A DNA stretch of 64,000 bases from Candidatus Eiseniibacteriota bacterium (GCA_963717505.1 OY970342.1:544001-608000), one strand, 5' to 3'; counted from the first letter of the stretch, positions 12,797 through 30,535 are shown. Notes: generated from the sequence alone by a model not told the origin. Program-made: numbers and translations.

Positions 12797-14211
12797 CCGA
12801 CCGAGCCTTCCATCTGGAGCTGGATCAGGCGGTTCATCTCGACCGCGTACTCCATCGGCAGCTCCTTGACGATCGGCTCGATGAAGCCCGAGACGATCAT
12901 CGCCGCCGCTTCTTCCTTGCCGATGCCGCGGCTCTGCAGATAGAAGAGCTGCTCGTCGCCGATCTTGGAGACCGTGGCCTCGTGGCCGATCGTGACGCGA
13001 TCCTCCTCGATCTCCATGTACGGATAGGTGTCGGAGCGCGACGCCTCGTCGAGGATCAGCGCGTCGCAGTTGACGGTGCTCTTGCGAGTCGACCGCGCCC
13101 TTCTGCACCTTGATCAGCCCGCGGTAGCCGGCCCGGCCGCCGTCCTTGCTGATCGACTTGGAGATGATCTTGCTGGTGGTGTGCGGCGCGCAGTGGATGA
13201 CCTTGCCGCCCGCATCCTGGTGCTGGCCCTTGCCGGCGAACGCGATCGACAGGATCTCGCCATGCGCGCCCGGCTCCATCAGGTAGACGCTCGGGTACTT
13301 CTGGTGATCTTGGAGCCGAGATTTCCGTCGACCCACTCCATCGTGGCGTTGCGCGTAGGCGACCGCGCGCTTGGTCACCAGGTTGTAGACGTTGTTCGAC
13401 CAGTTCTGGATGGTCGTGTAGCGGCAGCGGCGCGCCGCGCTTGACGATGATCTCGACCACCGCCGAGTGCAGCGAGTCGCTCGAGTAGATCGGCGCCGTG
13501 CAGCCCTCGACGTAGTGCACGTACGCGCCCTCGTCGACGATGATCAGCGTGCGCTCGAACTGCCCCATGTTCTTGGTGTTGATGCGGAAGTAGGCCTGCA
13601 GCGGGACGTCGACGTGCACGCCCTTGGGCACGTAGATGAACGAGCCGCCCGACCACACCGCCGAGTTGAGCGCCGCGAACTTGTTGTCGGTCGACGGGAT
13701 GATGGTGCCGAAGTACTCGCGGAACAGATCCTCGTGGTCGCGCAGGCCGTGGTCGGCCGAGAGGAAGATGACGCCCTGCTTCTCGAGATGCTCCTTGATC
13801 TTGTGGTAGACGACCTCGGAGTCGTACTGGGCGCCGACGCCGGACAGGAACTTCTGCTCGGCCTCGGGAATCCCGAGCTTGTCGAACGTGCGCTTCATGT
13901 CGGCCGGCACGTCCTCCCAGGTCTTGGCCTCGGTCGTCGGTCGGCTTGACGTAGTAGAAGATGTTCTGGAAGTCGATGGTCGACAGATCCGGACCCCAGG
14001 TCGGCATCGGCTTCTTGTCGAAGATCTCGAGCGCCTTGAGCCGGAAGTCGCGCATCCACTTGGGCTCGCCCTTCATGTCCGAGATCTGGGCGACGATGTC
14101 GCGGTTCAGTCCGCGGAGCGCCTTGAACACCGGCTTCTCGTCGTCGTGGAAGCCGTACTTCTCCGCGTAGCCATCACGCATGTCGAGATTGGGAGTTTCG
14201 GTCGTGCTCAT
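12793..14211 (-). CDS. sufB: Fe-S cluster assembly protein SufB (about 5 single-base indels, probably sequencing errors)
   Basis: SufB motifs ([57 protein letters not shown]) lie in successive frames; breaks near 13935, 13430, 13352, 13303 and 13085. Confidence 0.9.
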
Positions 14212-15013
14212 TGGGCCGCCACCTCCTTGCCCTCGCGCACCCAGTCGTATCCGCGCTTCTCCAGCTCGAGCGCCAGCTCCGGGCCGCCGGAGCGCACGAT
14301 ACGACCGTCCACGATCACGTGGACATGGTGCGGCTTGATGTAGTTGAGGATGCGCTGGTAGTGCGTGATCACCAGCACGCCCACGTTCGGGCCCGGCCAG
14401 CGCGTTGACGCCGTCCGACACGATGCGCAGCGCGTCGATGTCGAGCCCGGAGTCGGTCTCGTCCATGATCGCGATCTCGGGCTTGAGCATCGCCATCTGG
14501 AGGATCTCGGCGCGCTTCTTCTCGCCGCCCGAGAAACCGTCGTTCAGGTAGCGGCTGGCGAACGAGTCGTCCATCTTGAGCAGCGCCATCTTCTCGCGGA
14601 GCAGGGTGCGGAACTCCTTGAGCGGGATGCCCTTGTGCTTGGGCATTGCACCGCTGCCGTTGGTCTCCGCCGGTACCAGGCGCGCGTTGAGCGCGGTGCG
14701 CAGGAAGTTGGCGACCGAGAGCCCGGGGATCGCGACCGGGTACTGGAACGCCATGAACAGGCCCTCGCGCGAGCGCTCGTCGGGCTCCATCTCGAGAATG
14801 CTCTCGCCCTTGAAGCAGGATGTCGCCCGCGGTGACCTCGTAGCGCGGATGACCCATGAGCGTGTTGGCGAACGTGCTCTTGCCCGAGCCGTTCGGCCCC
14901 ATGAGAGCGTGAATCTCGCCCTTGCGCACCTCGAGCGAGAGGCCCTTCAGGATCTCCTTGCCCTCCACCGAGACGTGAAGGTTGTCGACGATCAGTTCCG
15001 GCGTGTGGCTCAT
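14208..15013 (-). CDS. sufC: Fe-S cluster assembly ATPase SufC (2 indels)
   Basis: [34 protein letters not shown] and ITHYQR; extra bases near 14816 and 14394. Confidence 0.92.
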
Positions 15014-15505: not shown

Positions 15506-16051
15506 CTATCGAACATCCTCGACACGCACGACCGCCGGCCGCGTCGGGACACCGAGCCGCGGTGCGGCGGTGATCCCGGCCACGAGCGCCGGTTCCTCGA
15601 GCATGCCGTGGTCTTGCGTACAATGAGCGCAGCCACCGACCGCCGCGGGTGTCGCGCACTCGCGGCACGTTTCCAGATAGGCGAGCCCTTCGAGCAGCTC
15701 ACGCTCGAGCTGCTGGTGCCGATCGATGGCCGCGCGCGTCTCGTCGAGCTTGCGCTCGAACAAGGTTCGCAGCTCACCCATCGCCCCCGGCCCCCGCTCG
15801 GCGGACCACCACGACCGCAACACCTCGCGCATCTCCTGGAGGGAGAAACCGAGGCCGTGCAGCAGGTCGATCCAGCGAACCCGCTCGATCGCCGACTCCT
15901 CGAAGAGCCGGAAGCCGCCGCTCGAGCGCGTGGCCGGTTTGAGCAGACCCAACTCTTCGTAGAGGTGAATCGCCCGTACCGACTTTCCGGTTTGCCGGGC
16001 GAGGTCCCCCACGCGGAGGAGGTGCTCTCGGGTCGAAGTCATCGTCGCCAT
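15506..16051 (-). CDS. MerR-family transcriptional regulator with C-terminal CxxC-x8-CxxC
   Basis: RVGDLARQTGKSVRAIHLYEELGLL.P..RSSGGFRLF HTH, coiled coil, then CRECATPAAVGGCAHC. Confidence 0.92.
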   Translation of the reverse strand: MATMTSTREHLLRVGDLARQTGKSVRAIHLYEELGLLKPATRSSGGFRLFEESAIERVRWIDLLHGLGFSLQEMREVLRSWWSAERGPGAMGELRTLFERKLDETRAAIDRHQQLERELLEGLAYLETCRECATPAAVGGCAHCTQDHGMLEEPALVAGITAAPRLGVPTRPAVVRVEDVR

Positions 16052-16839: not shown

Positions 16840-16867
16840 TAAAGCGCGGCCGGCCTTCGACCGATAG
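16840..16867 (+). promoter_or_regulatory. Putative sigma-28 (FliA/SigD/WhiG-type) promoter of the DUF11 operon
   Basis: TAAA-N16-ACCGATAG compared with the consensus TAAA-N15/16-GCCGATA(A/T), about 100 bp upstream of the first gene. Confidence 0.5.
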
Positions 16868-16966
16868 GGCCTGACAGGCTGTTCTTCGGCTGGCTGGCCA
16901 TACGGACCGCTCTCCCGAGCGGCGCCGGTGCGGACTCATGCCGAAAACGTTTCCCGGAGGTTCTCT

Positions 16967-17476
16967 GTGAAACTTGGGCATCGGGGCCGCTTCGGAGCGG
17001 CCATCGTGGGCGTCCTGTTCGTCGCACTGACGGCGACCGCTCACGCCACGGTTCAGGTCCGGCTGACTGCACACCGGATCCTGAAGGACGCGAAGGGTGC
17101 GGAATCGTTCCAGATCGCCGAGCAGATCAAGCCCGGCGAGTCCGTCGAGTACCGCGCGGTCTATCAGAACGACGGCGACGCCGGCGTCGACAAGCTGGTC
17201 GCGACGCTGCCGATTCCCGCCGGAACCGAGTTCATCGCAGGCACGGCGTCGCCGGCCGGCGCGCAGGCCAGCCTCGACGGCAAGACCTTCGCCCCCATGC
17301 CGCTCAAGCGCAAGGTTCGACTCAGCGACGGCCGTGAGGTCGAGCGCGAAGTGCCGACCGCCGAGTACCGCTTTCTGCGCTGGTCGCTGGGCAGTCTCGG
17401 TTCGCGCAAGGAGCAGATCGTCCGCACACGGGTTCGCGTGACCGCGCTTTCCGCCGGCACCGCGAGCGAACGGTGA
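16967..17476 (+). CDS. Secreted single truncated DUF11-type domain protein (candidate fimbrial chaperone)
   Basis: GGAGG then GTG; signal peptide ending TAHA; KPGESVEYRAVYQN...LPIPAGTEF...LRWSLGSL...VRTRVRV; lacks the Lys and Asp seen in the other copies. Confidence 0.8.
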   Translation: MKLGHRGRFGAAIVGVLFVALTATAHATVQVRLTAHRILKDAKGAESFQIAEQIKPGESVEYRAVYQNDGDAGVDKLVATLPIPAGTEFIAGTASPAGAQASLDGKTFAPMPLKRKVRLSDGREVEREVPTAEYRFLRWSLGSLGSRKEQIVRTRVRVTALSAGTASER

Positions 17477-17481
17477 CCGCC

Positions 17482-20082
17482 ATGACCCACCTTCGACTCG
17501 ATACCCGACTTGGTTTCGCCCTGCGGGGAGCGTTGCTCCTCGCACTCGGAATCCTCGCGTTCGCGATTCCCGCGTCCGCTGCACCGCCCGCCGGCACCTC
17601 GATCGGCAACCAGGCGTCGGCCCAGTATCTCGACGCGACTTCGACGCTGCGCACCGCGACTTCGAACGTCGTCACCACCATCGTTCAGCAGGTCGCGAGC
17701 TTCACGTTGACCGCGAACGGCAGCGTCACGTCCTCGCCGGGCGGCCAGGTGATCTTCCCGCACACCCTGACCAACACCGGCAACGGCACCGACGACTTCC
17801 CGCTCACGCTGTCGAACGTGGTCGCGGATGACTTCGACCTGACCGGTCTCGCGATCTATCTGGACGCGAACGGCGACGGGGTGCCGGACAACTTCACCAA
17901 CCTGACGACCACGGGATCGGTCGCCGCCGGCGCCGCGTTCCGCTTCGTGGTGGTTGGAAGCGTGCCCGGAACCCAGGTCGGCGGGCAGATCGGCCGCATG
18001 CGGATCGATGCGTCCAGCACGTTCGACCCCGGCCAGGCCACGAACAATCTCGATCAGGTCACCGTCACCGGCAACGCAGTGGTCAGCGTGACCAAGGCGA
18101 TCAACCAGAACAACGGGGCTTCGCCGAGCGGTCCGCACACCTACACCCTGAGCTACAACAACTCGGGCAACAGCACCGCGACCGGCCTGCTGCTCACCGA
18201 CCTGGTTCCGGCTGGAATGACCTACGTGCCGGGCAGCGGTCGCTGGAGCGTCACCGGAGCCACGGTGCTGACCGACGGAAGCGCCGCCGACGCCCAGGGC
18301 GTCGTGCCGAACACCGTGATCTACGACTTCGGCGCGACCACCGGTGGCACGGTCACCGCCCGGATCGCGCAGGTGCCTCCGGGCGCCAGCGGGACCCTGA
18401 CGTTCGACGTCACCGTCAACGCGGGCCTCGGACCGCAGACCATCAGCAACAACGCGACCTACGCGTACAACGACGGTGCGGTCAACGTCGGTCCGTTCGC
18501 CACCAACTTCGCGCCGTTCACGGTCAACCAGGCGGTGTCGCTGACCTTCGCCGGTCAGACGATCCCGATCGCGGTCCAGGGCGCGACCATCTCGTACACC
18601 AACACGCTGACCAACACCGGCAACGGCACCGATCGCTTCGACATCGTGATCGGCGCTTCGACCTTCCCGGCCGGCACCAGCTACGCGCTATACCAGAGCG
18701 ACGGCGTGACGCCGCTGTCGGACACCAACGCCAACGGCACGCCGGACACCGGTCCGCTGGCCGCGGGCGCGGCCTACGATGTCGTTCTGCGACTGACGCT
18801 GCCGACGTCGGCTACCGGCGGTCCGTTCCAGGTCGACAAGACGGCGACCTCGATCTCGAACGTCGCGGTCAACGCCACGGCGACCGACGTCCTGACCACG
18901 ATCACGCCGAATGCCGTCGACCTGACCAACAACTCCCCCGGCGGCGCTGCGCCGGGCGCGGGCGCTGGTCCCGAACTTACGGCGGTGGTGACCAACGCCA
19001 CCAACCCGGCGACCACCACGCGCTTCACGCTGTACGTCAACAACTACAGCACGATCGCGGACAACTTCGATCTGGCGGCGAGCACGGACGGTTCGTTCGG
19101 CTCGATCACGCTGCCGGCGGGTTGGTCCGTGACCTTCTTCGACGCGTCGAACGCGATCATCACCAACACCGGCAGTATCGCCGGCAGCGGCAACGTGCTG
19201 GTCTACGCCGACGTCACGATTCCCGCGGGCTTTGCGGCGAGCACGAACAGCATCTACTTCCGCGCTCGCTCACCGGTTTCGCTGGCCGTCGATTACATCC
19301 ATGACGCGGTGACCGTCAACCCGGTTCGCACCCTGACGCTGGTGCCCAACAACTCCGGACAGCTGACGCCGGGCGGCGCGACCACCTACGCCCACATCCT
19401 GTCCAACACCGGCAACGTGCTGGAAGGTGACGGCGTGGCGAGCGTGGTTTCGCTGACCATGACCAACAACGCCGCCTCGTGGAGCTCGGCGCTGTACGTG
19501 GACAGCAACAACAACGGCTCGCTCGACGTCGGCGACGCCGCGATCGCCGATCTCGGCACCATCGGTGGGCTGGCCTCCGGCGCGAGCGTGCGTCTGTTCG
19601 TGCGTGTCTTCTCGCCGGCCGGTGCTCCACTCGGCGCCACCAACCTGACCACGCTGACCGCGACCACGACCAACGGCACCTACGTCTCGGCGCCGCCGGC
19701 GCTGGTGAACGCAACGGACCTGACCACGGTCCTCAACGGCCAGCTGCAGCTGGTCAAGCGACAGGCGCTCGATGCCGACTGTGACGGCCTTCCCGACGGA
19801 CCTTACTCGTTGGTGAACATCACGGCCGGTGCGATCCCTGACGCGTGCATCTGCTACGAGCTGGTGGTGACGAACGTCGGTACGGCGTCGGTGACCGCGG
19901 TGGTCGTCGACGACGCCACGCCCGCGAACACGACCTATTGGGATGCGGCGCCGGCGTCGAGCACCCAGGGCTTCGTCACCGCACCGCCGGGCAACACCGC
20001 CGGAACGATTTCCGCCGCGGTCGGCATCCTGGCGCCGGGTGCGTCGGCAACGATTCTGTTCGGAGTTCACATCGACCCCTAA
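17482..20082 (+). CDS. Secreted multi-Ig DUF11 protein (candidate major fimbrial shaft subunit), 866 aa
   Basis: Signal peptide ending PASA; N-terminal PAGTSIGNQA...SNVVTTIV; several TNTGN Ig domains with DxNxDG loops; one full DUF11 domain; C-terminal truncated DUF11. Alternative GTG start at 17473. Confidence 0.88.
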   Translation: MTHLRLDTRLGFALRGALLLALGILAFAIPASAAPPAGTSIGNQASAQYLDATSTLRTATSNVVTTIVQQVASFTLTANGSVTSSPGGQVIFPHTLTNTGNGTDDFPLTLSNVVADDFDLTGLAIYLDANGDGVPDNFTNLTTTGSVAAGAAFRFVVVGSVPGTQVGGQIGRMRIDASSTFDPGQATNNLDQVTVTGNAVVSVTKAINQNNGASPSGPHTYTLSYNNSGNSTATGLLLTDLVPAGMTYVPGSGRWSVTGATVLTDGSAADAQGVVPNTVIYDFGATTGGTVTARIAQVPPGASGTLTFDVTVNAGLGPQTISNNATYAYNDGAVNVGPFATNFAPFTVNQAVSLTFAGQTIPIAVQGATISYTNTLTNTGNGTDRFDIVIGASTFPAGTSYALYQSDGVTPLSDTNANGTPDTGPLAAGAAYDVVLRLTLPTSATGGPFQVDKTATSISNVAVNATATDVLTTITPNAVDLTNNSPGGAAPGAGAGPELTAVVTNATNPATTTRFTLYVNNYSTIADNFDLAASTDGSFGSITLPAGWSVTFFDASNAIITNTGSIAGSGNVLVYADVTIPAGFAASTNSIYFRARSPVSLAVDYIHDAVTVNPVRTLTLVPNNSGQLTPGGATTYAHILSNTGNVLEGDGVASVVSLTMTNNAASWSSALYVDSNNNGSLDVGDAAIADLGTIGGLASGASVRLFVRVFSPAGAPLGATNLTTLTATTTNGTYVSAPPALVNATDLTTVLNGQLQLVKRQALDADCDGLPDGPYSLVNITAGAIPDACICYELVVTNVGTASVTAVVVDDATPANTTYWDAAPASSTQGFVTAPPGNTAGTISAAVGILAPGASATILFGVHIDP

Positions 20083-20093
20083 CCCGGTATCCC

Positions 20094-23000
20094 ATGCAGA
20101 GTATCCGGGTTCATCCAGCACGACACGGGCGCCCCGCGGAGTTCCACTCCGCGACGGGCGCCGTCGTGCTGGTATGCGTATTGGCCGGCACTGCGTTTTT
20201 TTTCACGCGCGCGCACGCGATTCCATATACGCGCGGCACCGCATCCCCGCTGGCGACGGTTTCCGGGCCGCCGCCCGGCGCTCTCGTCGACAACACGGCG
20301 TTCGCGGCTGGACTCGACTCGGCAACCGCGACCCCGCTCAACGTCGCCTCGAACCCGGTGAGAACGATCGTCGGCACGTTCGAGCGGCTGGCATGGGACG
20401 GCCCGTTCGGAGCACAGGTTCCGCAGGGCACGAGAGCGACGTTTCGCCACCGACTGGCCAACACGGGCAACGTTTCCTCGGAAGTGCGCCTCGACGTCGC
20501 GAATTCGTTCGGCGACGGCTTCGATCTCGCGAACTTCTCGCTCGCCCGTGACGACGACGCCGACGGCGTCCCGAGCCCGGGCGACAGCTCGATCGCGCTC
20601 GGAGACGCGATTCTCGTGCCTGCCGACGCGGTCGTGGACCTGCTGGTCGGCTTCGACGTTCCGGCCGGCACTCCGGCGGCGGTCGCAGCCGAGTTCATGC
20701 TGTCGGCGACGACGCTCGACCAGGCGGTGGTCGCGGCCGTCGTCGACACCGTGCGCACTCCCGCCGGTCCGACGCTGGCGTTCTACCGCGACGGCACTTA
20801 TGCCGCAACCACGCAGATCGCCGCCGGCGGCGCGAACCTGTTCGTCGAGGCCGGCGCGGTCGGCTGCAACCTGCGGCCGTTTGCCGCCGATACGCTCGCG
20901 ATCACGCTCCGCTCGCTGCGCCTCGGCGACCTCGAGACGTTCACCGCCATCGAGACGGGACCGGCCACCGGGCGCTTCCGCATCGGCCCGTTCGTCGGCA
21001 CCGTGCTCACGCCGCCGGGCGTCACCCCCTACACCCTGGGTGTGCTCGAGACCGAAGCCAACGACGAGTTGGTCGCGAGCTTCGTCGGCTGTGGTGCGGT
21101 GCTCACCGAAGCGCGGCTGTGGATCGAGCCGGCCGGCGTCGCGTTCGATGCGCTCAGCAACTTCCCGGTGGCCGGCGTCCAGATCTCGCTGATCGACGTC
21201 ACCGGCCAGGGCAACGGCGGCTTCGCGGGCGGGCCGGCGCGCGTCTTCCAATCGGATGGCGTCACCCCGGCGCCCGACGCCGTCGTGACTGCATTCGATG
21301 GCCGCTATCTCTTCCCCTACGTGCTGGCCAGCACCTACCAGCTGAACGTGACGGCACCGGTCGACTACGCGTTTCCTTCGCAGGTCGCTCCCAGTGGGCT
21401 GCCCGTTGGCCACGTGATCGACGCTCAGGGCTCGTATGGCGCGCCGTTCGTGATCGCGACCGATGGCCCGCCGATCCGGCACGACGTTCCCCTCGATCCT
21501 CTCGGTGCGGCGGGTCTGCGCGTCGAGCTGACGGCGGCTCGGAACACGGCTGAGATCGGCGACGCCATCGATTTCACCGCGCGCGTGAGCAACGCTTCGG
21601 GCCGTCCGGTCGGGATGACTCAGCTGGCGATCGCATTGCCGCCGGGCTTTGCCTATCTGCCCGGCACGACCCGCCGCGACACGCTCTCTGCGCCCGATCC
21701 GGCCGGTGGGGCCGGCCCTTCGCTCGCGTTCGACGCCGGGGCCCTCGGCATCGGCGGTACCGCGACCGTTCGCTACCGGGTGCGCATCGGCGCCGGCGCC
21801 GAGCCCGGCGAGGCGCTGAGTCGCGCGAGTGCCACCGCGATCAACGCGACCTCGAACGTGGCCACGGCATCGGTGCTGATCGTGGACGGAGTGTTCGCCG
21901 ATGAAGCCGGCGTGCTCGGCACGGTGTTCGTGGACCTGAACGGCGATGGCCGCCGCAGTGCCGGCGACCCCGGACTTCCCGGCGTGCGCCTGGTGCTCGA
22001 CGACGGGACGTTTGCGGTCACCGACGGCGCCGGGCAGTACAGCCTCTACGGCCTGACGCCGCGCACGCACGGCCTGCGCGTCGATCCGTCGTCGCTCCCG
22101 GATGGCGCGGAAATGCTGGCCCTCGACCACCGCGATGCCGGAACGCCGGGGCTGCGCTTCGTCGATCTGCAGCGCGGCGACTTCCAGCGCGCGGACTTCG
22201 GCGTCGCGCCCGATTCGGCGACGCGCGTGGCGCCCGAGGAACGGCGCAAGGTGATCGCGTATTCCGGCGGCGAACTGGCCCCGACCGTTCGCCGTCCCCT
22301 GCCGGTCCAGGAGTTCGAGACCACGCCCGGCGATCCCCGGGCGCGGCCGACCTCAGGGGTCCTGGGCGAGTCGGGCCCGGCCCCGCTCGAACCACCGAAA
22401 CGCGGGGAATCCGCCGATCCGGCGACACCGACGATCTCGGCGCACGAAGGCGGAACGCGCGGGCGGCTTCCTCAGCCCGAGATGCCGGCTTTGCTGGCGT
22501 CGAACACCAGCGACCTCATCGATCCGGCGGACGGACTGTCCGGCACTCAGCCTTTCGGCTTCGTGGGCCGGCGGAACGGCGACACACTGAGCACCGACCA
22601 AATCACCGTGCGGGTTGCCGGACGCGCCGCCTTCGCGCTCGAGCTGCGCGTGAACGGCGACCTGGTGCCGCTGACCCGCGTCGGCACGCGACGCATCGAC
22701 GCCGACGCCGGGCTCCAGACCTGGGACTACATCGGCGTCCGCCTGCACCCGGGGCTCAACCAGCTCGAGCTGACCGAGCGCGCGACTGACGGCACCGCCG
22801 GCGCGCACGCCACGCTCGCGCTGGTGGCTCCGGACCGCCTGGGAACGCTCGAAATCACAGCACCCGAACGGGCCCCCGCCGACGGTCGCCGGCTCGCGTT
22901 CGTGCAAGTGCGAGCCGTCGATGAGCGCGGGGTGCCGATTGCCGGCCGCCTGGCGGTGACGCTGGTCGCCACGTTCGGCGAGTGGCAGATCGACGACGCT

Positions 23001-25586: not shown

Positions 25587-28500
25587 GCCGCGACCTCCTC
25601 CGCCGCATGGCGAGCGCGTGGGTCCGGATTCTCGGCGGGCTCGCGGTGGCCGGTTGCCTGTCGGCATCGCCCGCAGCGGCCCAGGTGTTCCGCAACTTCA
25701 CGCCGCGATTCACCACCAACACCACCGGCGACATCACCCTGGTCGGCAACACGATCATGAGCTGCAGCGCCGGCGGCGGCTGCACCACCGCACGCAACGG
25801 CGGCGGCGGCAACCAGAACAACAACGATTGGAACATGCAGTACGTGGACGTCGACGGCGACGGCACCACGTTCAGCTCGAGCCGCGCCACGCTCACGCTC
25901 CCGGTCGGCGCCACGGTGGTGTGGGCCGGACTCTACTGGGGCGGCAACTCCAACAACGCCAACCGCAACACGTGTCGGTTCGCGTCCCCGGCTGCGGCCT
26001 ACGCGACGCTGACCGCCGATCAGCTCGACAACACCGGGTCGGCATACTCGGCGTTCGAGGACGTCACGGCGCGCGTCCAGACCGGCGGCAGCGGCCAGTA
26101 CACAGTGGGCAACGTCTACTCGACCACTGGCACCAACAACTACGGCGGCTGGTCGCTGGTGGTCGTTTATCAGCTCGCGAGCGCGCCGGCTCGCAACCTG
26201 GTGGTGTTCGACGGCTACGCCGAAGTCGCCCCCGGAGCCTCGGTCAACATCGCGGTCAGCGGCTTCCTGACCCCGCCGGCCGGCGCGGTGAACACCACGC
26301 TGGGTGCGGTGACCTACGAAGGCGACCGCGGCTTCACCGGCGATGACTTCGACCTGAACGGCATCGTGCTCTCCGACGGCGACAATCCGGCCAACAACTT
26401 CTTCAACAGCTCGATCGCCCTCCTCGACGTCCAGTTCACCAACAAGAACCCGAACTACGTGAACCAGCTCGGCTTCGACGCCGACCTGGTGAACGCGAGC
26501 GGCATCCTGGCCAACGGCGCGACCAGCGCCACGATCCAGCTCAGCTCGACCGACGATCGCTTCTACCCGGCCGCGGTCACGTTCGCCACCGACCTCTACG
26601 TGCCGGTGTTGAGCGGCAACGGCTTCACCAAGCTGGTCGCCGATTTGAACGGGGCGCCGGCCCGTCCGGGCGACGTCCTCGAGTACACAGTGTTCCTGCG
26701 CAACACCGGCAACGACGCGTCGCTCAACACCGTCGCGCGCGACACGATCCCGGCGAACACCGCCTACGTGGCCGGTTCGATGACCGTGCTCAACGGTCCC
26801 AACGCCGGCGCCAAGAGCGACGGCGCTGGCGACGACCAGGCCGAGTTCGACGTCGCCGGCAACCGCGTGGTGTTCCGCCTCGGGACCGGAGCCAATGCGG
26901 CGAATGGCGGCCAGCTGAGCCCGGGGGTTCAGACCTCGTTCCGGTTCCGCGCGGTCGTCACCTCGCCGTCGCCGACCGGCACCGTGGTCTCGAATCAGGC
27001 GGTCGCCAACTTCAACGCCGCCCAGCTCGGCACGGCACTCGTTTCGATCAGCGATGCCGACACGATCACCGCCGGCACGCAACGCACCAACGTCACGGTG
27101 ACCGCGCCGACCCTGTCGGGCGTGGTCTTCGAAGATCCGAACTACGGCGGTGGGGCCGGCCGGAATCGCGTGACATCGTCGGGAGTCGTGCGGCCGGGCG
27201 CGCGCGTCGAGCTGTACAACGCGGCCGGCGCGTTCCAGTCGTTCAGCACCACCAATGCCTCGGGGGTCTACAGCTTCAACGGCTGGGGCCCGGGCGGCTA
27301 CACGGTACGCGTGGTCAACAGCACGGTGAGCTCGTCGCGCGCCGGCGCGGTGGCCGGGCTGCTCCCGGTGCAGACCTTCCGCACCAACGCCGCGACCGGG
27401 GTTGCGGTGGACGACGCGCAGCGCGTCGGCGGCGAGAGCCCCGGACTGCAGGACGCCGGATCCAACCTGACCAACGCGACTTTGGCGTCGCTGACCACCG
27501 CGTCCGCAACCCCGCAATCGATCGCACCGGTGACTCTGGGCACCGCCGATCTGTCGGGGGTCGAGTTCGGTTTCAACTTCAGCACCATCGTCAACGCCAA
27601 CGACAGCGGTTTCGGGAGCCTGCGCCAGTTCCTGATCAACGCCAACGCACTGGCGAACACCGGCCTGGCCCAGGCCGGACTTCCGGCCGGGATCGAGCAC
27701 GCGATCTTCATGGTCACCGACGGTGCGGCGCACCCGGGCCTGCGCGCCGGCCTGCCGAACCTGCTGACCGGCGGCGTGGTCGCGATCAACGTGCTCAGCA
27801 CGCTGCCGTCGATCACCGGTGCATCGACCACCATCGACGGCGGGCTCCAGACCGCGAACGTCGGCGACACCAACCCCGGCACGCTCGGGACCGGGGGCTC
27901 GGCCGGCGTCGACCTGCTGTCGCTGCCGGCGGTCGCCCGGCCCGAGGTCGAGATTCGCGACGGCGCCGCCCTGGCGCTCGGGCTCGACCTCATGGCGAGC
28001 GACATCACGCTCGCCCGTCTCGCGGCCTACGGCTTCGGCAACGCCCCGGGAAACAACAACAGCGCCGTGGTACGCGTCTGGACCAATGGCCTGCGCGCGA
28101 TCCTCGACGGCTGCGTCCTGGGCACCAGCGCCTCGAGCTTCACCGATCCCGGCGCCGGCGTGCGTTCGGGCGGCGACGTCGTGCGCTCGGCGGGGGGCGA
28201 CGACGGCATTGTGCGCAACAGCCTGATCGGATTCGGCGCCGGGTCGGGCATCGCACTCGCCGGCACCTCCAATGGCTGGCAGATCCTGACGAACGAGATT
28301 CGTGGCAACGCGATCGGCAACTCGACGCGCGACGGCATCAGCATCGAAGCCGGCGCCACCGAGTTGGTTCGCGGCAACCTGATCGCGAGCCACGAGGGCT
28401 GCGGCATCGACGCCGGAGCCAGTACCGGCGGCAACACCTTCGTGAACAACACGGTGACGCGCAGCGGCCTCGGTGCGGGTGCCGCCGAGACTCCCGGCGT

Positions 28501-30535
28501 GCGGGTCGGCGGCAGCACCAGCCTGGTGGATCGCTGCATTCTGTTCGACAACTACGGCGCGGGCGTGATGGTGGCCTCGGGCGGCACCGCGGTCACGATC
28601 ACCCGCAACTCGATCTACGGCAATGGAACGATCAATGGCGGCCTCGGTGGCCCGAGCGGCCAGGTCGGCATCGATCTGCTGACGGCGGCCGATACCCCGG
28701 CCCACGGCACGGCCCCATACTTCACGATCAACGACAACGGCGATGGCGACGGCGGCGGCAACGGTCTACTCAACTTCCCGGTGCTCGAGTCCGCGAGCAT
28801 CGCCGGCAGCAACGTCACGCTCACCGGCTGGGCGCGTCCGGGGTCAGCGATCGAGGTCTTCCTCGCGAATCCGGACCCCTCCAGCTTCGGCGAGGGTCAG
28901 ACTTATCTTCTGACCGTCACCGAAGGCTCGGGCGCGGACCTCGACGCGACGACCGGTCCCTATTCCGGACCGATCAACGGCGTGAATCAGGGCACAGACA
29001 ACACCAATCGCTTCCGCTTCACCGTACCGGCGCCGGGGGGCCTGACCTCGGGCGTGCGTCTGACCGCGACCGCGACGGTGGCGCTCGCGACTTCCGAGTT
29101 CTCCGGACTGGTGGTGGTCGGCGGAGGCTTCGCCGTCAGCGGGTTCGGTTACCAGGACCTCGACCACGACCTGCAACGCGACGCGGTCGAGAGCGGCATC
29201 GGCAGCGCGCTGTTCGTCAAGCTCGTGCCGGTGTCATCGCCGGGTTCGGCGCAGTCGGTGGCCAGTGTCGACCCCGGAACCGGTGTGTGGAGCATCGGCT
29301 TCGTTTCCTCGGGCAACTACACGCTGGTGCTCGATGACAACAGTCTTGTCTCCGACGTCACGCCCAATTACCCCGCCGGCTGGATCGGAACCGAAGCCCC
29401 GGCGGGAACGCGCCCCCTGACCGTGACCGCAGTCAACGTCTCCGACCAGGACTTCGGCCTCTGGCACGGCGGTCGAGTCGAGGGCGTGGTGTTCGACGAC
29501 GATGGCGCGGGCGGCGGCGCGGCGAACGACGGCGTGCGGCAGGGTGGCGAGGCCGCGATCGCCGGGGTTCGCATGCGGCTCGCGGCCGTTCCGTGCGCCG
29601 GAGGATTGTGCGACAGCACGCTGACCGACGGCGCCGGGTTCTATGCCCTGTGGATCCCGCATGCGGCTTCGGGCGCCACCACTGAAGTGCGCGAAGCCAA
29701 TCCGTCGGTGTGGATCTCGACCGGGGGCGGCGCCGGGACGACCGGGGGCAGCTACGTGCGCGCGGCCGACGCGGTCTCTTTCGTTCCCCTGAGCGGCAAC
29801 CTCTACACCGGCGCCGTCTTCGGCGACGTGGCGCCGAACCAGTTGGTGCCTCCCGGAATGCAGACCGGGACCGAAGGCTCCGTCGTGTTCCATCCCCACA
29901 CGTTCGTCGCCGGGAGCGCCGGCAGCGTGACCTTCGGGCTCGGGCAGGCCCCGGCGCCGGTGATCCCGGGCTGGGGGGCTCAGCTCTATCGCGACCTGGA
30001 CTGCGACGGCGCCATCGACGCCGGCGAGCCGGCGATCGTCGCGCCCCAGGCGGTCACCGGCGGCCAGACGATGTGCCTCGTACTACGGCACTCGATTCCG
30101 GCCGGAGCACCTCTTGGCGCGCTCGAGCAGGTCACGGTTTCGGCAAGCATGAGCTACACCGGGGCCGCACCGCCGCTCGTCACCGTCGTTCTGCTCGACG
30201 ATCGCACCACCGTGATGGACGCCGGCACGTTGCGGATCGTCAAGAGCGTCAGCTCGGGCACCGCGCTGCCGGGCGATCTGATCACCTACACGATCACCTA
30301 CACCAACCTGGGCCCGGCTCCGGTCTCGGCGATCGAGATCCAGGACATGGTGCCGGGCTACACGATGTTCCAGTCCGCGGGCTGCGGCGGGCTGGGCAGC
30401 GGACTCTCGGCGTGCGGGGTGACCACGCAGCCGCCGCTGAACGGAACCGGACCGTTGCGTTGGACCCTGACCGGCGCGCTCGATCCGGGCGCAACCGGCA
30501 GCGTCACGTTCCAGGTACAGGTCGAGACGCCCTAG
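25583..30535 (+). CDS. Large secreted adhesin-like protein: N-terminal putative adhesin domain, DUF11, SdrD-B-like, parallel beta-helix, C-terminal truncated DUF11 (candidate tip adhesin), 1650 aa
   Basis: ATGA overlap with the upstream stop; signal peptide ending PAAA; WAGLYWGG / GGWSLVVVY domain; GSLRQFLINAN then N-x-I beta-helix repeats; ends VTFQVQVETP. Confidence 0.85.
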   Translation: MSRDLLRRMASAWVRILGGLAVAGCLSASPAAAQVFRNFTPRFTTNTTGDITLVGNTIMSCSAGGGCTTARNGGGGNQNNNDWNMQYVDVDGDGTTFSSSRATLTLPVGATVVWAGLYWGGNSNNANRNTCRFASPAAAYATLTADQLDNTGSAYSAFEDVTARVQTGGSGQYTVGNVYSTTGTNNYGGWSLVVVYQLASAPARNLVVFDGYAEVAPGASVNIAVSGFLTPPAGAVNTTLGAVTYEGDRGFTGDDFDLNGIVLSDGDNPANNFFNSSIALLDVQFTNKNPNYVNQLGFDADLVNASGILANGATSATIQLSSTDDRFYPAAVTFATDLYVPVLSGNGFTKLVADLNGAPARPGDVLEYTVFLRNTGNDASLNTVARDTIPANTAYVAGSMTVLNGPNAGAKSDGAGDDQAEFDVAGNRVVFRLGTGANAANGGQLSPGVQTSFRFRAVVTSPSPTGTVVSNQAVANFNAAQLGTALVSISDADTITAGTQRTNVTVTAPTLSGVVFEDPNYGGGAGRNRVTSSGVVRPGARVELYNAAGAFQSFSTTNASGVYSFNGWGPGGYTVRVVNSTVSSSRAGAVAGLLPVQTFRTNAATGVAVDDAQRVGGESPGLQDAGSNLTNATLASLTTASATPQSIAPVTLGTADLSGVEFGFNFSTIVNANDSGFGSLRQFLINANALANTGLAQAGLPAGIEHAIFMVTDGAAHPGLRAGLPNLLTGGVVAINVLSTLPSITGASTTIDGGLQTANVGDTNPGTLGTGGSAGVDLLSLPAVARPEVEIRDGAALALGLDLMASDITLARLAAYGFGNAPGNNNSAVVRVWTNGLRAILDGCVLGTSASSFTDPGAGVRSGGDVVRSAGGDDGIVRNSLIGFGAGSGIALAGTSNGWQILTNEIRGNAIGNSTRDGISIEAGATELVRGNLIASHEGCGIDAGASTGGNTFVNNTVTRSGLGAGAAETPGVRVGGSTSLVDRCILFDNYGAGVMVASGGTAVTITRNSIYGNGTINGGLGGPSGQVGIDLLTAADTPAHGTAPYFTINDNGDGDGGGNGLLNFPVLESASIAGSNVTLTGWARPGSAIEVFLANPDPSSFGEGQTYLLTVTEGSGADLDATTGPYSGPINGVNQGTDNTNRFRFTVPAPGGLTSGVRLTATATVALATSEFSGLVVVGGGFAVSGFGYQDLDHDLQRDAVESGIGSALFVKLVPVSSPGSAQSVASVDPGTGVWSIGFVSSGNYTLVLDDNSLVSDVTPNYPAGWIGTEAPAGTRPLTVTAVNVSDQDFGLWHGGRVEGVVFDDDGAGGGAANDGVRQGGEAAIAGVRMRLAAVPCAGGLCDSTLTDGAGFYALWIPHAASGATTEVREANPSVWISTGGGAGTTGGSYVRAADAVSFVPLSGNLYTGAVFGDVAPNQLVPPGMQTGTEGSVVFHPHTFVAGSAGSVTFGLGQAPAPVIPGWGAQLYRDLDCDGAIDAGEPAIVAPQAVTGGQTMCLVLRHSIPAGAPLGALEQVTVSASMSYTGAAPPLVTVVLLDDRTTVMDAGTLRIVKSVSSGTALPGDLITYTITYTNLGPAPVSAIEIQDMVPGYTMFQSAGCGGLGSGLSACGVTTQPPLNGTGPLRWTLTGALDPGATGSVTFQVQVETP

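What the first reader, a model, noticed from the sequence alone, without database searches (positions are those of the whole stretch)
16840..30535. Candidate new fimbrial system: a split isopeptide (DUF11) domain distributed as tip / shaft / barrel-base / chaperone
Seen: complete DUF11 domains in this operon carry Lys, Asp and Asn (SVTK 18094 / TDLVP 18199 / TISNNA 18448; GFTK 26630 / RDTIP 26741 / PTGTVVSNQA 26993). The same domain is also split across termini. Gene 2 starts, right after its signal peptide, with only the Asn-bearing last strands (PAGTSIGNQA...SNVVTTIV) and ends with a Lys+Asp domain that stops before those strands. Gene 3 has the N-terminal Asn strands (PPGALVDNTA...SNPVRTIV) and a C-terminal OM barrel, but no terminal acceptor. 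Gene 4 has the C-terminal truncated Lys+Asp domain but no N-terminal donor. Gene 1 is a truncated domain lacking both Lys and Asp. Known: CnaA/CnaB-type Ig domains form autocatalytic Lys-Asn isopeptides using an acidic residue, and DUF11/TIGR01451 is related to such pilin domains. Donor-strand complementation builds chaperone-usher pili, and archaeal thread filaments combine it with isopeptide links. Inference: a covalent chain adhesin-(shaft)n-barrel that needs no sortase or classical usher, like a natural SpyTag/SpyCatcher polymer. I know of no description of this in diderm bacteria but cannot search the literature.
Basis: partly seen in the sequence, partly recalled or inferred. Interest (0 to 1): 0.93.

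Follow-up and report, generated by a model that had tools for sequence, protein, structure and literature searches.

The report
Split-domain, probably covalent pilus operon
Four neighbouring genes look like the parts list of an undescribed surface fibre of two-membrane bacteria, in which each protein supplies the missing strands of its neighbour's last domain and is probably locked to it by a self-made chemical bond.

Summary
Four co-oriented genes at 16928-30535 all carry DUF11/CLIPPER sequence.

- The shaft (g2) and tip (g4) end inside a DUF11 domain, after the Lys and Asp but before the Asn strands.
- The shaft and the barrel protein (g3) begin, right after their signal peptides, with just those Asn strands.
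- These are the only two donors and two terminal acceptors in the 4.16 Mb genome.

The pattern is conserved far beyond this phylum. The order small protein / shaft / barrel / tip recurs in Eisenbacteria, Geobacteraceae, Verrucomicrobia, Acidobacteria, Burkholderiales and Acinetobacter/Moraxella, among others. Acceptor Lys and Asp and shaft donor Asn are near-invariant there.

A complex prediction places the shaft's N-terminal strands into the shaft's C-terminal domain: ipSAE 0.87, best control 0.13.

g3's last 816 residues fold as a very large outer-membrane-type barrel with no Pfam family.

Seven literature searches found no description of this system. The closest precedents are archaeal threads and clostridial BsaA.

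Not shown: the covalent bond, polymer length, export route and g1's chaperone role.

The parts
16928..17476 (+). g1: small secreted protein (182 aa from the GTG; start codon uncertain). It has a signal peptide and one DUF11-like beta-sandwich that ends after the strand preceding the Asn strands and lacks the catalytic acid. Candidate periplasmic cap or chaperone for donor strands.
   Evidence: TIGR01451 24.8 bits. hhalign places it on DUF11 positions 21-96 of 128, weakly (E 0.074). A g1-like ORF lies directly upstream of the shaft gene in 45 of 47 operons, window included. The Asp-equivalent column is A39 P8 L3 V3 G1 T1, so none of the 55 residues tallied is acidic (one search printed only the six commonest residues; the 56th is not in the output). 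AF2 pLDDT 94.7. Structural neighbours are pilin/adhesin Ig folds including CLIPPER 9ifr (Z 7.2, rmsd 2.5, 88 aligned), all at middling Z.
17473..20082 (+). g2: shaft subunit, 869 aa. Signal peptide, donor strands, about six Ig-like domains including one complete DUF11 (K208/D243/N326), and a truncated C-terminal acceptor DUF11.
   Evidence: One search lists the best 120 of 2214 homologues (all 855-894 aa, 62-100% identity; 119 of them at 62-74%). Invariant residues in alignment A1.
17581..17688 (+). g2 donor segment (aa 37-72, two strands). It starts 1-2 residues after the predicted AxA signal-peptide cleavage site. The putative isopeptide Asn is N46 (codon 17608-17610).
   Evidence: N46, N65 and 11 other positions are invariant in 120 sequences. 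Donor Asn is 47 of 47 across phyla. Residues 36-38, 42, 44-57, 60 and 62-74 form the predicted interface.
18079..18522 (+). g2 internal complete DUF11 domain with the Lys208 / Asp243 / Asn326 triad. It serves as the intramolecular reference for the split copy.
   Evidence: Pfam DUF11, profile 2-98. K208, D243 and N326 are invariant.
19726..20079 (+). g2 acceptor: C-terminal DUF11 truncated before the Asn strands. Lys762 is codon 19756-19758 and Asp814 is codon 19912-19914. It holds a conserved Cys770/Cys792 pair.
   Evidence: It ends at canonical DUF11 position 95 of 128. K762, D814, C770 and C792 are invariant. K 44 of 47 and D 47 of 47 across phyla. Interface residues 754-764, 805-815 and 867-869.
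20094..25586 (+). g3: base/anchor protein, 1830 aa. Signal peptide, donor strands, Ig-like stalk (CarboxypepD_reg-like, a DUF11 without the Lys, SdrD_B), a Pro/Arg-rich linker, and a C-terminal giant beta-barrel. It has no terminal acceptor.
20265..20375 (+). g3 donor segment (aa 58-94). Asn67 is codon 20292-20294. It lies 17 residues after the predicted signal-peptide cleavage site.
   Evidence: Donor HMM E 2.4e-8. N67, A69, S86, N87, V89 and V93 are at least 90% conserved in 51 hand-picked barrel proteins of 31-57% identity. Asn 43 of 48 across loci.
23136..25583 (+). g3 C-terminal 816-residue barrel domain.
   Evidence: No Pfam or NCBIfam hit at E<=0.1. 2648 clusters at E<=1e-3 in the 50%-identity library. 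The AF2 model has pLDDT 74.8 and about 32 long antiparallel strands. Foldseek's best hits are large OM barrels (SlpA 7zgx, TonB-dependent receptors, MtrB, LptD, SprA) at TM no higher than 0.27 (query-normalised; up to 0.31 target-normalised).
25583..30535 (+). g4: tip adhesin, 1650 aa. Signal peptide, a roughly 310-aa head with no family, a complete DUF11 (K350/D387/N471), SdrD_B, a right-handed beta-helix, further Ig-like domains, and a truncated C-terminal acceptor DUF11. It has no donor.
   Evidence: No donor HMM hit. The same head is fused directly to the barrel in other organisms (P0155, P0207, P0250).
30221..30532 (+). g4 acceptor: truncated DUF11 ending 2 residues after the last strand. 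Lys1554 is codon 30242-30244 and Asp1588 is codon 30344-30346.
   Evidence: Pfam DUF11 profile 2-86 of 114, E 1.1e-11. In 29 tip proteins K is 28 of 29 and D is 29 of 29.

Best explanation
The operon encodes an outer-membrane-anchored surface fibre whose subunits are joined by completing a split DUF11/CLIPPER (CnaA-like) domain across chains.

How the joint works. Each acceptor is a C-terminal DUF11 that holds the Lys-bearing first strand and the catalytic Asp but lacks the last two strands. Each donor is the mature N-terminus of the next, more cell-proximal subunit and supplies those two strands with the Asn.

Order of parts. Tip adhesin g4 (acceptor only), then shaft g2 (donor plus acceptor, n>=1), then g3 (donor only), whose C-terminal giant beta-barrel sits in the outer membrane. 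The polarity is that of chaperone-usher pili, where an N-terminal extension inserts into the previously assembled, more distal subunit.

Likely lock. Once the strands are in place, the reconstituted Lys/Asp/Asn triad probably forms a Lys-Asn isopeptide by itself, as it does inside complete CLIPPER domains. That would make the chain covalent without a sortase.

g1. It is an acceptor-like domain without the acid. Most likely it binds free donor strands reversibly in the periplasm and so prevents premature, irreversible ligation.

Export. The barrel is probably both the export pore and the final anchor.

Shown here: the split architecture, its conservation and a confident complex model. Inferred: the covalent bond, chain length, export route and g1's role.
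For: 1. Complementary truncation. g2 and g4 end at canonical DUF11 position ~95 of 128 or Pfam 86 of 114. The donors align from position ~100, which holds the Asn at 103. Side by side, the g2 C-terminus plus g2 N-terminus reads like g2's own internal complete domain.

2. Closed set. There are exactly two donors (g2, g3) and two terminal acceptors (g2, g4) in the genome.

3. Complex prediction. g2[745-869] with g2[36-203] gave ipSAE 0.86, 0.87 and 0.87, against a best control of 0.13. The runs agree in at least 98% of contacts and the partner pLDDT is at least 93. The tool's calibration: the mark was reached by 58 of 80 solved complexes and 2 of 110 mismatched pairs, and holds only roughly because my own alignment was used. 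Donor residues 48-53 pair with the Asp-bearing strand 807-813. Donor residues 64-69 pair with the Lys strand 760-762. K762 touches A48, S64 and N65.

4. Conservation in 120 shaft homologues: N46, N65, K762 and D814 are invariant.

5. Conservation across phyla, in the best 80 of 595 related loci:
   - The barrel N-terminus lies inside the locus in 66 of 80, and 47 of those 66 have a donor HMM hit.
   - Of 58 loci with at least 3 kb upstream, 45 have a shaft gene with an N-terminal donor and an acceptor ending within 6 residues of the stop.
   - A tip gene (terminal acceptor, no donor) lies downstream in 28 of 80.
   - A g1-like gene lies just upstream of the shaft in 45 of 47.
   - Triad residues: shaft K 44 of 47 (3 gaps), shaft D 47 of 47, tip K 28 of 29, tip D 29 of 29, shaft donor N 47 of 47, barrel donor N 43 of 48.

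6. g1 family. None of the 55 residues tallied at the Asp position is acidic (one search lists only the six commonest; the 56th residue is not in the output).

7. Unsplit relatives. Some barrel-family proteins carry the g4-type head and complete tandem DUF11 repeats in one chain ahead of the same barrel (P0155, P0207, P0250). One such paralogue, 2724 aa with 13 of the genome's 17 Pfam DUF11 matches, lies in this genome. So head, DUF11 stalk and barrel belong to one physical object.

8. Known chemistry. CLIPPER/DUF11 forms an autocatalytic Lys-Asp-Asn isopeptide (Lys715/Asp748/Asn806 in 9IFR). The spacing matches the K12/D46/N103 spacing of the canonical repeats here (PMC12617251, passages).

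9. No other conserved gene accompanies the operon. No usher or PapD is in the genome.
Against: - No experiment. The isopeptide bond is inferred from residue identity and a model that gives contacts, not chemistry. N46 itself is not among the 25 listed lowest-error pairs; its neighbour A48 is.
- The complex pass may only reflect likeness of the two pieces to a complete DUF11 domain. That supports the split but not binding in the cell. Close cousins of a true partner also pass this test, so g2-on-g2 does not prove homopolymerisation.
- The donor versus DUF11 hhalign match is statistically weak (9 columns, E 0.2), and the donor peptides alone have no Pfam hit.
- 19 of 66 barrel N-termini had no donor HMM hit, and 5 of 48 barrel donors have Ala or Ser instead of Asn.
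- g1 folds confidently on its own (pLDDT 94.7) and has an extra hairpin that could fill its own groove. Its binding to donors was not tested.
- The barrel model is only moderately confident (pLDDT 74.8, pTM 0.59) and matches known barrels only generically.
Confidence: 0.64

Rival explanations
1. The same intermolecular strand complementation joins the subunits, but non-covalently, as in chaperone-usher pili. The conserved Lys, Asp and Asn are kept for folding or packing, not for a bond.
For: The complex model shows strand insertion only. Five of 48 barrel donors lack the Asn (A3, S2), so at least that joint can exist without it. The CLIPPER survey notes that some DUF11 domains lack the triad (PMC12617251).
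Against: Lys, Asp and Asn are near-invariant exactly at the triad positions in shafts and tips of distant phyla. The one acceptor-like protein expected to bind reversibly (g1) shows no acidic residue among the 55 tallied at the Asp position. Complete DUF11 domains in the same proteins keep the triad.
Confidence: 0.13
2. There is no fibre polymer. The parts form a fixed 1:1:1 covalent adhesin (tip-adaptor-anchor), or the shaft closes on itself in cis while tip and barrel protein pair directly.
For: Two distinct acceptor classes exist. Shaft acceptors have an extra N-terminal segment and a Cys pair, and the tip acceptor consensus differs. Two donor classes also exist: shaft donors are very conserved and barrel donors variable. 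This could encode strict pair specificity. The g2-g2 pass cannot separate true partners from close cousins.
Against: g2 carries both a donor and an acceptor, the hallmark of a repeating subunit. Gene order (shaft before barrel, tip last) resembles major-subunit-first pilus operons (recalled knowledge of fim/pap). Cis closure would require an ~830-residue chain of Ig-like domains to bend back on itself, and it would leave g3 and g4 as the only partners, making g2 pointless.
Confidence: 0.14
3. The genes are independent DUF11 surface proteins. The truncated ends and N-terminal motifs are ordinary domain-boundary variation, and the N-terminal strands belong to each protein's own first domain.
For: g1, a truncated domain, is predicted to fold confidently alone. 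NCBIfam choice_anch_T aligns across the end of the g2 donor into the next domain (aa 54-131, below cut-off).
Against: The exact complementarity of the break point. The closed set of 2 donors and 2 acceptors in the genome. Conservation of the four-role pattern across phyla. The donor strands were modelled into the other chain even though their own first domain was present.
Confidence: 0.04

Closest known systems
Chaperone-usher pili (type 1 / P pili, FimA-H, PapA-K)
   Same: An N-terminal extension of each subunit completes the incomplete Ig-like fold of the more distal subunit. The tip adhesin has a groove but no extension. There is a small periplasmic Ig-like accessory protein and an outer-membrane barrel. 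The operon has a major subunit, a barrel and the adhesin last. (General features taken from PMC13721041 passages, and recalled knowledge.)
   Different: No sequence relationship: Usher PF00577 and PapD_N PF00345 are absent from the operon proteins and from the genome. Subunits are 870-1830 aa multi-domain proteins, not ~150-aa pilins. Two strands are donated, not one. The joint is predicted to become covalent. The barrel is part of the last subunit itself. The accessory protein looks like an acceptor, not a strand donor.
Intramolecular isopeptide domains: DUF11 = CLIPPER (PDB 9IFR) and CnaA/CnaB domains of Gram-positive pilins
   Same: Same domain family (Pfam and NCBIfam hits) and the same Lys / Asp / Asn triad and spacing. 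Complete copies occur inside g2 and g4.
   Different: There the three residues lie in one chain and only stabilise the domain. Here one copy per subunit is cut between the third-last and the second-last strand and distributed over two polypeptides. The 2025 survey has 0 occurrences of 'truncated', 'split', 'barrel' or 'Catcher'; 'incomplete' (2) and 'polymer' (3) occur only in unrelated contexts. Its supplements were not seen.
Clostridium perfringens BsaA (TasA family) 'donor-strand exchange and lock'
   Same: An N-terminal strand inserts into the neighbour's sheet, followed by a proposed autocatalytic Asn-Lys isopeptide with an acidic catalyst. Mutants lose oligomers (PMC11580942, abstract and passages).
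   Different: Unrelated fold and family (no TasA/camelysin Pfam hit). It is a monoderm matrix fibre with a single small subunit type, no tip/base roles, no barrel, and secretion linked to type IV pilus genes.
Archaeal thread filaments (Sulfolobus Saci_0406)
   Same: Donor-strand complementation combined with an inter-subunit isopeptide in a thin adhesive fibre (PMC9715654, passages).
   Different: It is archaeal, with no outer membrane. [quoted passage not shown] It has a small single-domain subunit and no homology was detected.
SpyTag/SpyCatcher, DogTag/DogCatcher (engineered split isopeptide domains)
   Same: A peptide carrying one reactive residue completes a truncated Ig-like domain carrying the others and ligates spontaneously. 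(DogCatcher abstract seen in the listing; SpyCatcher recalled.)
   Different: Those are man-made splits of Gram-positive adhesin domains. This would be a natural split, of a different (CnaA-like DUF11) domain, donating two strands, and used for head-to-tail assembly.
Sortase-assembled pili; type V autotransporters
   Same: Like sortase pili, it would be a covalent Lys-linked pilus built of Ig-like domains. Like type Va autotransporters, it has an N-terminal passenger and a C-terminal barrel in one protein.
   Different: No sortase in the operon (the genome's only one is ~700 kb away), and no LPXTG or hydrophobic tail. The barrel domain is 816 aa with about 32 predicted strands, not 12, and no autotransporter Pfam hit.

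Membership tests
DUF11 / CLIPPER domain (PF01345, TIGR01451) | Profile match above the curated cut-off | tested here: met
   g2 44.3 bits and g4 43.8 bits against a Pfam cut-off of 24.6. TIGR01451: g2 49.8, g4 72.9, g1 24.8 against a cut-off of 24. g3 is below cut-off in both (20.5 and 17.1).
DUF11 / CLIPPER domain (PF01345, TIGR01451) | Lys (first strand) / Asp / Asn triad with the spacing of 9IFR (Lys715, Asp748, Asn806) | tested here: met
   Canonical repeats of this genome have K12, D46, N103, against spacings of 33 and 58 residues in 9IFR. The internal g2 domain has K208/D243/N326, all invariant. The split copy has K762/D814 on one terminus and N46 on the other. Bond formation itself was not tested.
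Chaperone-usher pilus | PapC/FimD-type usher (PF00577) | tested here: not met
   No hit in g1-g4 at E<=0.1. No match in the genome (86.7% complete by marker genes), while the E. coli control was positive.
Chaperone-usher pilus | PapD/FimC-type two-domain chaperone (PF00345) | tested here: not met
   No match in the genome. g1 is a single domain whose structural neighbours are adhesin/pilin Ig folds. The absence of a PapD-like chain from the top 50 is not decisive.
Chaperone-usher pilus | The N-terminal extension of one subunit completes the incomplete Ig fold of the neighbour | tested here: met
   In silico only: ipSAE 0.87 against a best control of 0.13. This concerns how it works, not homology.
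Sortase-assembled pilus | Pilin-specific sortase in the locus, and a C-terminal LPXTG sorting signal | tested here: not met
   Neighbouring genes are a MerR regulator, ABC ATPase pieces and an amidohydrolase. The single sortase gene is at G000:C1:1272607. The proteins end directly after a beta-strand with no LPXTG or hydrophobic tail.
TasA/BsaA exchange-and-lock fibres | TasA/camelysin-family fold with an N-E-K triad | tested here: not met
   No such Pfam family among the hits at E<=0.1. The catalytic acid here is Asp within a DUF11 fold.
Type V (auto)transporter | 12-16-strand autotransporter, intimin or TpsB barrel family | tested here: not met
   No Pfam hit on aa 1015-1830. The model shows about 32 long strands over about 560 residues plus further beta elements. 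Its nearest solved folds are 22-36-strand barrels at low TM.
Outer-membrane beta-barrel protein (generic) | All-beta, hairpin-connected amphipathic strands closing a barrel | tested here: inconclusive
   The secondary structure and the Foldseek neighbours are all OM barrels (155 matches at E<=1e-3). However, TM is no higher than 0.27 (query-normalised), pLDDT is 74.8, and no coordinates could be inspected for barrel closure.
Archaeal thread (Saci_0406 family) | Homology to Saci_0406 and an Asn to N-terminal-amine isopeptide | not tested
   Compared only from passages of the paper. No thread sequence was fetched.

The most novel reading that the evidence does not exclude
This is a new class of diderm pilus, widespread from Acinetobacter and Moraxella to Geobacter, Verrucomicrobia and Eisenbacteria. 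Its subunits ligate themselves head-to-tail through a naturally split isopeptide domain, a native Tag/Catcher pair. A new giant barrel acts first as the export pore and then, by donating its own N-terminal strands, as the covalently attached terminator and anchor: a self-terminating usher. A catalytically dead Catcher (g1) chaperones the Tags in the periplasm.
Probability: 0.4. Interest if true: 0.93.

Novelty: new variant of a known kind. Interest (0 to 1): 0.86.

Why it matters
If confirmed, it adds a pilus assembly route for two-membrane bacteria that shares no component with chaperone-usher, type IV, type V, curli or sortase systems.

- It would give a function to a very large set of proteins now labelled only 'DUF11 domain-containing' or 'hypothetical'. 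The barrel domain alone has 2648 clusters at 50% identity and no Pfam family.
- It would answer, for diderms, whether autocatalytic isopeptide chemistry is used between chains as well as within them.
- It would supply a library of natural, co-evolved, possibly orthogonal peptide/domain ligation pairs for protein engineering.
- It would define a new type of large outer-membrane barrel, possibly a combined secretion pore and anchor.
- The operon occurs in cultivable genera (Acinetobacter, Moraxella, Variovorax, Alkanindiges, Psychrobacter), so it is directly testable.

Tried and rejected
Steps that led nowhere:
- Pfam scan of the isolated donor peptides (42 and 44 aa): no family, because they are too short.
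- Sequence search of PDB with g2, with the A1 profile and with the g4 acceptor: nothing usable. 9ifr matched only a g3 internal domain (E 5.5e-4), and that alignment stops before the Asn region. The K/D/N equivalence was therefore taken from spacing and motif instead.
- Foldseek and VIA-align on the g1 model gave only middling matches to Ig-like adhesin/pilin folds (best Z 8.3). They cannot say whether g1 has an open groove.
- Foldseek on the barrel gave only generic barrel likeness.
- ESM Atlas on the g4 head gave 'cell surface protein' clusters without families. This is a lead only.
- An all-against-all search for further conserved operon genes found only g1 and the DUF11 proteins. The large minus-strand clusters are antisense or low-complexity shadows of GC-rich genes. 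A 20-locus cluster turned out to be response-regulator/histidine-kinase genes.
- The look-up of sequencing runs: no RNA holder listed. There are 10 DNA rows from 4 studies, all below half of the words. Nothing was laid, so there is no statement on expression or habitat.
- The promoter/terminator scan found nothing above shuffles.
The pairs g4-acceptor/g2-donor, g2-acceptor/g3-donor and g1/donor could not be run.

Considered and rejected:
- A classical usher/chaperone or a sortase as assembler.
- An autotransporter barrel.
- The tafi paper, which surfaced only because 'DUF11' matches 'DUF1102'.

Literature. The claim that the system is not in print rests on searches, and on passages of PMC12617251, PMC13721041, PMC9715654, PMC11580942 and PMC11821415. 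The library lacks most subscription journals. Supplements were closed, notably Tables S2/S3 and Fig. S4 of the CLIPPER survey, which may list proteins with partial domains.

Selection bias. The 50 barrel proteins of alignment A2 were picked by eye for having a donor-like N-terminus. The unbiased figures are those.
- of 150 representatives, 71 have a signal peptide plus an HMM donor, 55 are fragments or lack a signal peptide, and 24 have a signal peptide without an HMM donor.
- Of those 24, about 11 look like divergent donors by eye and about 10 are single-chain fusions.
- 47 of 66.

Full report
WHAT IS THERE

The window is 66-71% G+C. It lies in a single 4.16 Mb contig. Close homologues are named Candidatus Eisenbacteria / Eiseniibacteriota.

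Four + strand genes sit tightly together:
- g1: 16928-17476
- g2: 17473-20082
- g3: 20094-25586
- g4: 25583-30535

The flanks are unrelated and mostly on the other strand: a MerR regulator, pieces of an ABC ATPase and an amidohydrolase. All four proteins begin with a signal-peptide-like segment (read directly). All four hit DUF11 (PF01345 / TIGR01451).

CHECK OF THE OBSERVATION

The C-terminal domains of g4 and g2 match the DUF11 profile only up to position 86 and 80 of 114, and stop at the stop codon. I built an HMM from ten canonical DUF11 repeats of another protein in the same genome. In it the reactive residues are K12, D46 and N103. That is the spacing reported for the solved CLIPPER domain, Lys715/Asp748/Asn806 (PMC12617251, passages).

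By hhalign:
- The g2 C-terminal domain covers positions 21-95 and ends there (prob 88.7%).
- The N-terminal segments align to 100-108 around N103. This is weak on its own: 9 columns, E 0.2.
- The g1 family covers 21-96 (E 0.074).

So the break lies in the loop before the Asn strand, and the two halves are complementary.

In the whole genome the donor HMM finds only g2 and g3, and a terminal acceptor occurs only in g2 and g4. Chance does not produce this.

CONSERVATION IN CLOSE RELATIVES

The search gave 2214 hits; the best 120 listed are 855-894 aa. In alignment A1 (g2 plus 119 homologues at 61-74% identity) these residues are invariant:
- donor: A40, I44, G45, N46, A48, A50, D54, T63, S64, N65, V67, T69, V71;
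- acceptor: K762, D814 and the pair C770/C792;
- internal complete domain: K208, D243, N326.

All 16 homologues read in full end within three residues after the same strand.

CONSERVATION IN DISTANT RELATIVES

The 816-residue C-terminal domain of g3 has no Pfam or NCBIfam family. Yet it finds 2648 clusters at E<=1e-3 (1181 at E<=1e-30) among 1.84 billion 50%-identity representatives. Nearly all lie at the C-terminus of proteins of 1500-4600 aa.

Of the best 150:
- 71 have a signal peptide followed by an HMM-detectable donor.
- 55 are fragments or lack a signal peptide.
- 24 have a signal peptide but no HMM donor. By eye about 11 of these carry a divergent donor and about 10 are single-chain fusions.

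The best 80 loci come from Eisenbacteria, Geobacteraceae/Pelobacter/Desulfuromonas, Verrucomicrobia, Terriglobia, Abditibacteriaceae, Balneolaceae, Nitrospira, many Burkholderiales, Nevskia and Steroidobacter. They also include Acinetobacter, Moraxella, Psychrobacter and Alkanindiges.

On six-frame ORFs of these loci:
- The barrel N-terminus lies inside the locus in 66 of 80, and 47 of those carry the donor.
- Of 58 loci with at least 3 kb upstream, 45 have a roughly 900-aa shaft gene with an N-terminal donor and an acceptor ending within 6 residues of the stop.
- Eight more have an upstream terminal-acceptor ORF with no donor hit.
- 28 of 80 have a downstream tip gene, with a terminal acceptor, no donor and very variable size.

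A g1-like gene sits directly upstream of the shaft in 45 of 47 operons, window included.

Residue counts:

| Position | Count |
|---|---|
| Shaft acceptor Lys | 44 of 47 (3 gaps) |
| Shaft acceptor Asp | 47 of 47 |
| Tip acceptor Lys | 28 of 29 |
| Tip acceptor Asp | 29 of 29 |
| Shaft donor Asn | 47 of 47 |
| Barrel donor Asn | 43 of 48 (Ala 3, Ser 2) |
| g1 family, Asp-equivalent | none acidic among the 55 tallied of 56 (A39, P8, L3, V3, G1, T1) |
| g1 family, first-strand position | K30, R12, Q5, L3, A1, H1 (52 of 56 tallied) |

No other gene is conserved with the operon. A cluster seen in 20 loci consists of two-component regulators.

STRUCTURE PREDICTIONS

The single complex job paired g2[745-869] with g2[36-203], that is, the donor together with its own following domain. 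Each chain was given as a cut of alignment A1.

- Score: ipSAE 0.86, 0.87 and 0.87, against a best control of 0.13.
- The runs agree in at least 98% of contacts. The partner pLDDT is at least 93.
- Tool calibration: the mark was reached by 58 of 80 solved complexes and 2 of 110 mismatched pairs. This holds only roughly because my own alignment was used.

The interface is the donor (36-38, 42, 44-57, 60, 62-74) against the Lys strand (754-764), the Asp strand (805-815), 780-799 and the C-terminal residues 867-869. Donor 48-53 runs antiparallel to 807-813. Donor 64-69 lies against 760-762 and 783/793. K762 touches A48, S64 and N65.

This is what a reconstituted CnaA-like domain should look like, and it speaks against the strands packing into their own first domain. 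It may partly reflect the model's memory of complete DUF11 domains. That supports the split but not binding in vivo, and it cannot show chemistry.

The barrel domain folds as an all-beta structure with about 32 long hairpin-connected strands (pLDDT 74.8, pTM 0.59). Its Foldseek neighbours are exclusively large outer-membrane barrels (Deinococcus SlpA, TonB-dependent receptors, MtrB, LptD, SprA), with TM no higher than 0.27 (query-normalised).

g1 folds as a confident single beta-sandwich (pLDDT 94.7). Its neighbours are adhesin/pilin Ig folds including CLIPPER 9ifr (Z 7.2), at middling Z. Whether it has an open groove stays undecided.

UNSPLIT RELATIVES

Some barrel-family proteins carry, in one chain, a g4-like head, 8-23 HMM-detected DUF11 repeats (most of them complete) and the same proximal module and barrel. 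Examples are P0155, P0207 and P0250. The window's own genome has such a paralogue: 2724 aa, holding 13 of the genome's 17 Pfam DUF11 matches, at G000:C1:1360766-1368937 on the minus strand.

So the head, DUF11 stalk and barrel form one physical object. The operon studied here is the version in which the stalk is encoded in pieces that must be re-joined.

MECHANISM PROPOSED

Shown in silico:
- The tip (g4) offers an acceptor.
- The shaft (g2) inserts its N-terminal two strands into it and offers its own acceptor.
- g3 inserts its N-terminal strands into the last acceptor and ends the chain at its barrel.

Inferred:
- The reconstituted Lys/Asp/Asn triad forms a Lys-Asn isopeptide, as complete CLIPPER domains do.
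- The shaft repeats (n>1).
- Subunits pass through the g3 barrel and growth is from the base, as in chaperone-usher pili, with g3's own stalk following last.
- g1, an acceptor without the acid, reversibly caps donors in the periplasm.

My estimates:

| Claim | Probability |
|---|---|
| Inter-subunit strand complementation | about 0.8 |
| Covalent lock | about 0.6 |
| Homopolymer | about 0.5 |
| g1 as chaperone | about 0.4 |
| Barrel as export pore | about 0.4 |

COMPARISON WITH WHAT IS KNOWN

It works like a chaperone-usher pilus but is not a member of that family. No usher or PapD is found in the operon or the genome. Subunits, donor length and accessory protein all differ.

It uses the chemistry of Gram-positive pilin domains but has no sortase in the locus and no sorting signal.

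The idea of donor-strand insertion followed by an autocatalytic Asn-Lys bond has natural precedents. One is clostridial BsaA (PMC11580942). In another form it occurs in archaeal threads (PMC9715654). Both involve unrelated folds and envelopes.

A 2025 survey that characterised DUF11/CLIPPER treats only intramolecular bonds and does not mention split or truncated domains. A 2026 review of bacterial surfaces lists no such pilus.

Seven full-text searches found no description. In an annotated Acinetobacter haemolyticus plasmid the operon's genes are called only 'DUF11 domain-containing protein', 'hypothetical protein' or 'NEW3 domain-containing protein'. The library omits most subscription journals and supplements were closed, so priority cannot be excluded.

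VERDICT

- Observation: confirmed.
- Interpretation: supported as far as computation can go.
- Classification: a new variant of donor-strand, isopeptide-locked fibres. It is built from a domain family and a barrel family never linked to pilus assembly, and it is widespread in diderm bacteria.
- Interest: 0.86.

Noticed in passing
outside the window: G000:C1:1360766-1368937 (- strand): A 2724-aa ORF holding 13 of the genome's 17 Pfam DUF11 matches, followed by the same barrel type as g3 (barrel HMM 817 bits). It is the single-chain counterpart of the split system, in the same genome.
   Followed up: partly
window 19780-19848 (g2 aa 770-792) and tip acceptors of related loci: An invariant Cys770/Cys792 pair sits in an insertion between the Lys strand and the core of the shaft acceptor. 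Tip acceptors carry a differently placed conserved Cys pair. These may be disulfides that shape the groove, or specificity elements.
   Followed up: no
L-loci barrel donors: In 5 of 48 barrel proteins the donor Asn is Ala (3) or Ser (2). The base joint may be non-covalent, or use other chemistry, in some lineages.
   Followed up: no
window 13375-15013 (- strand): Two overlapping ORFs each hold a part of one ABC_tran domain (profile 1-53 and 57-135). This may be a frameshifted ABC ATPase gene or an assembly error.
   Followed up: no
upstream of g1 in about 20 related loci (e.g. L005:3056-5548, L041:4504-5529, L042:4779-5447); window 15506-16051 (-): Two-component sensor kinases and response regulators, one with a GGDEF output, often precede the operon on the same strand. 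In the window a divergently oriented MerR-family gene lies upstream instead. This hints at signal or c-di-GMP-linked control.
   Followed up: partly
L081 (CP085288.1, Acinetobacter haemolyticus plasmid p4, 190-204 kb): The operon is carried on a mobilizable 302-kb plasmid next to a transposase. An OmpA-family gene sits between the barrel and tip genes. The shaft region is annotated as four short CDS, so it is possibly disrupted.
   Followed up: no
outside the window: G000:C1:1272607-1272969 (+): This is the genome's single sortase-family match (97.7 bits), about 700 kb from the operon. Its substrate was not looked for.
   Followed up: no
window 22190-22520 (g3 aa ~700-810): A Pro/Arg/Glu-rich, probably disordered linker lies between the Ig-like stalk and the barrel-proximal domains of g3. 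It is a candidate segment for threading the barrel lumen or spanning the periplasm.
   Followed up: no
window 25646-25657 (g4 aa 22-25): The g4 signal peptide contains a lipobox-like V-A-G-C ahead of an AAA|Q cleavage-like site. Homologous heads begin near the latter, so signal peptidase I cleavage seems more likely, but lipidation is not excluded.
   Followed up: no
window 20079-28705 (- strand): Very long antisense ORFs (683, 980 and 1061 aa) lie opposite g3 and g4. They cluster with similar antisense ORFs in other loci. These are shadows of GC-rich coding sequence, not genes.
   Followed up: partly
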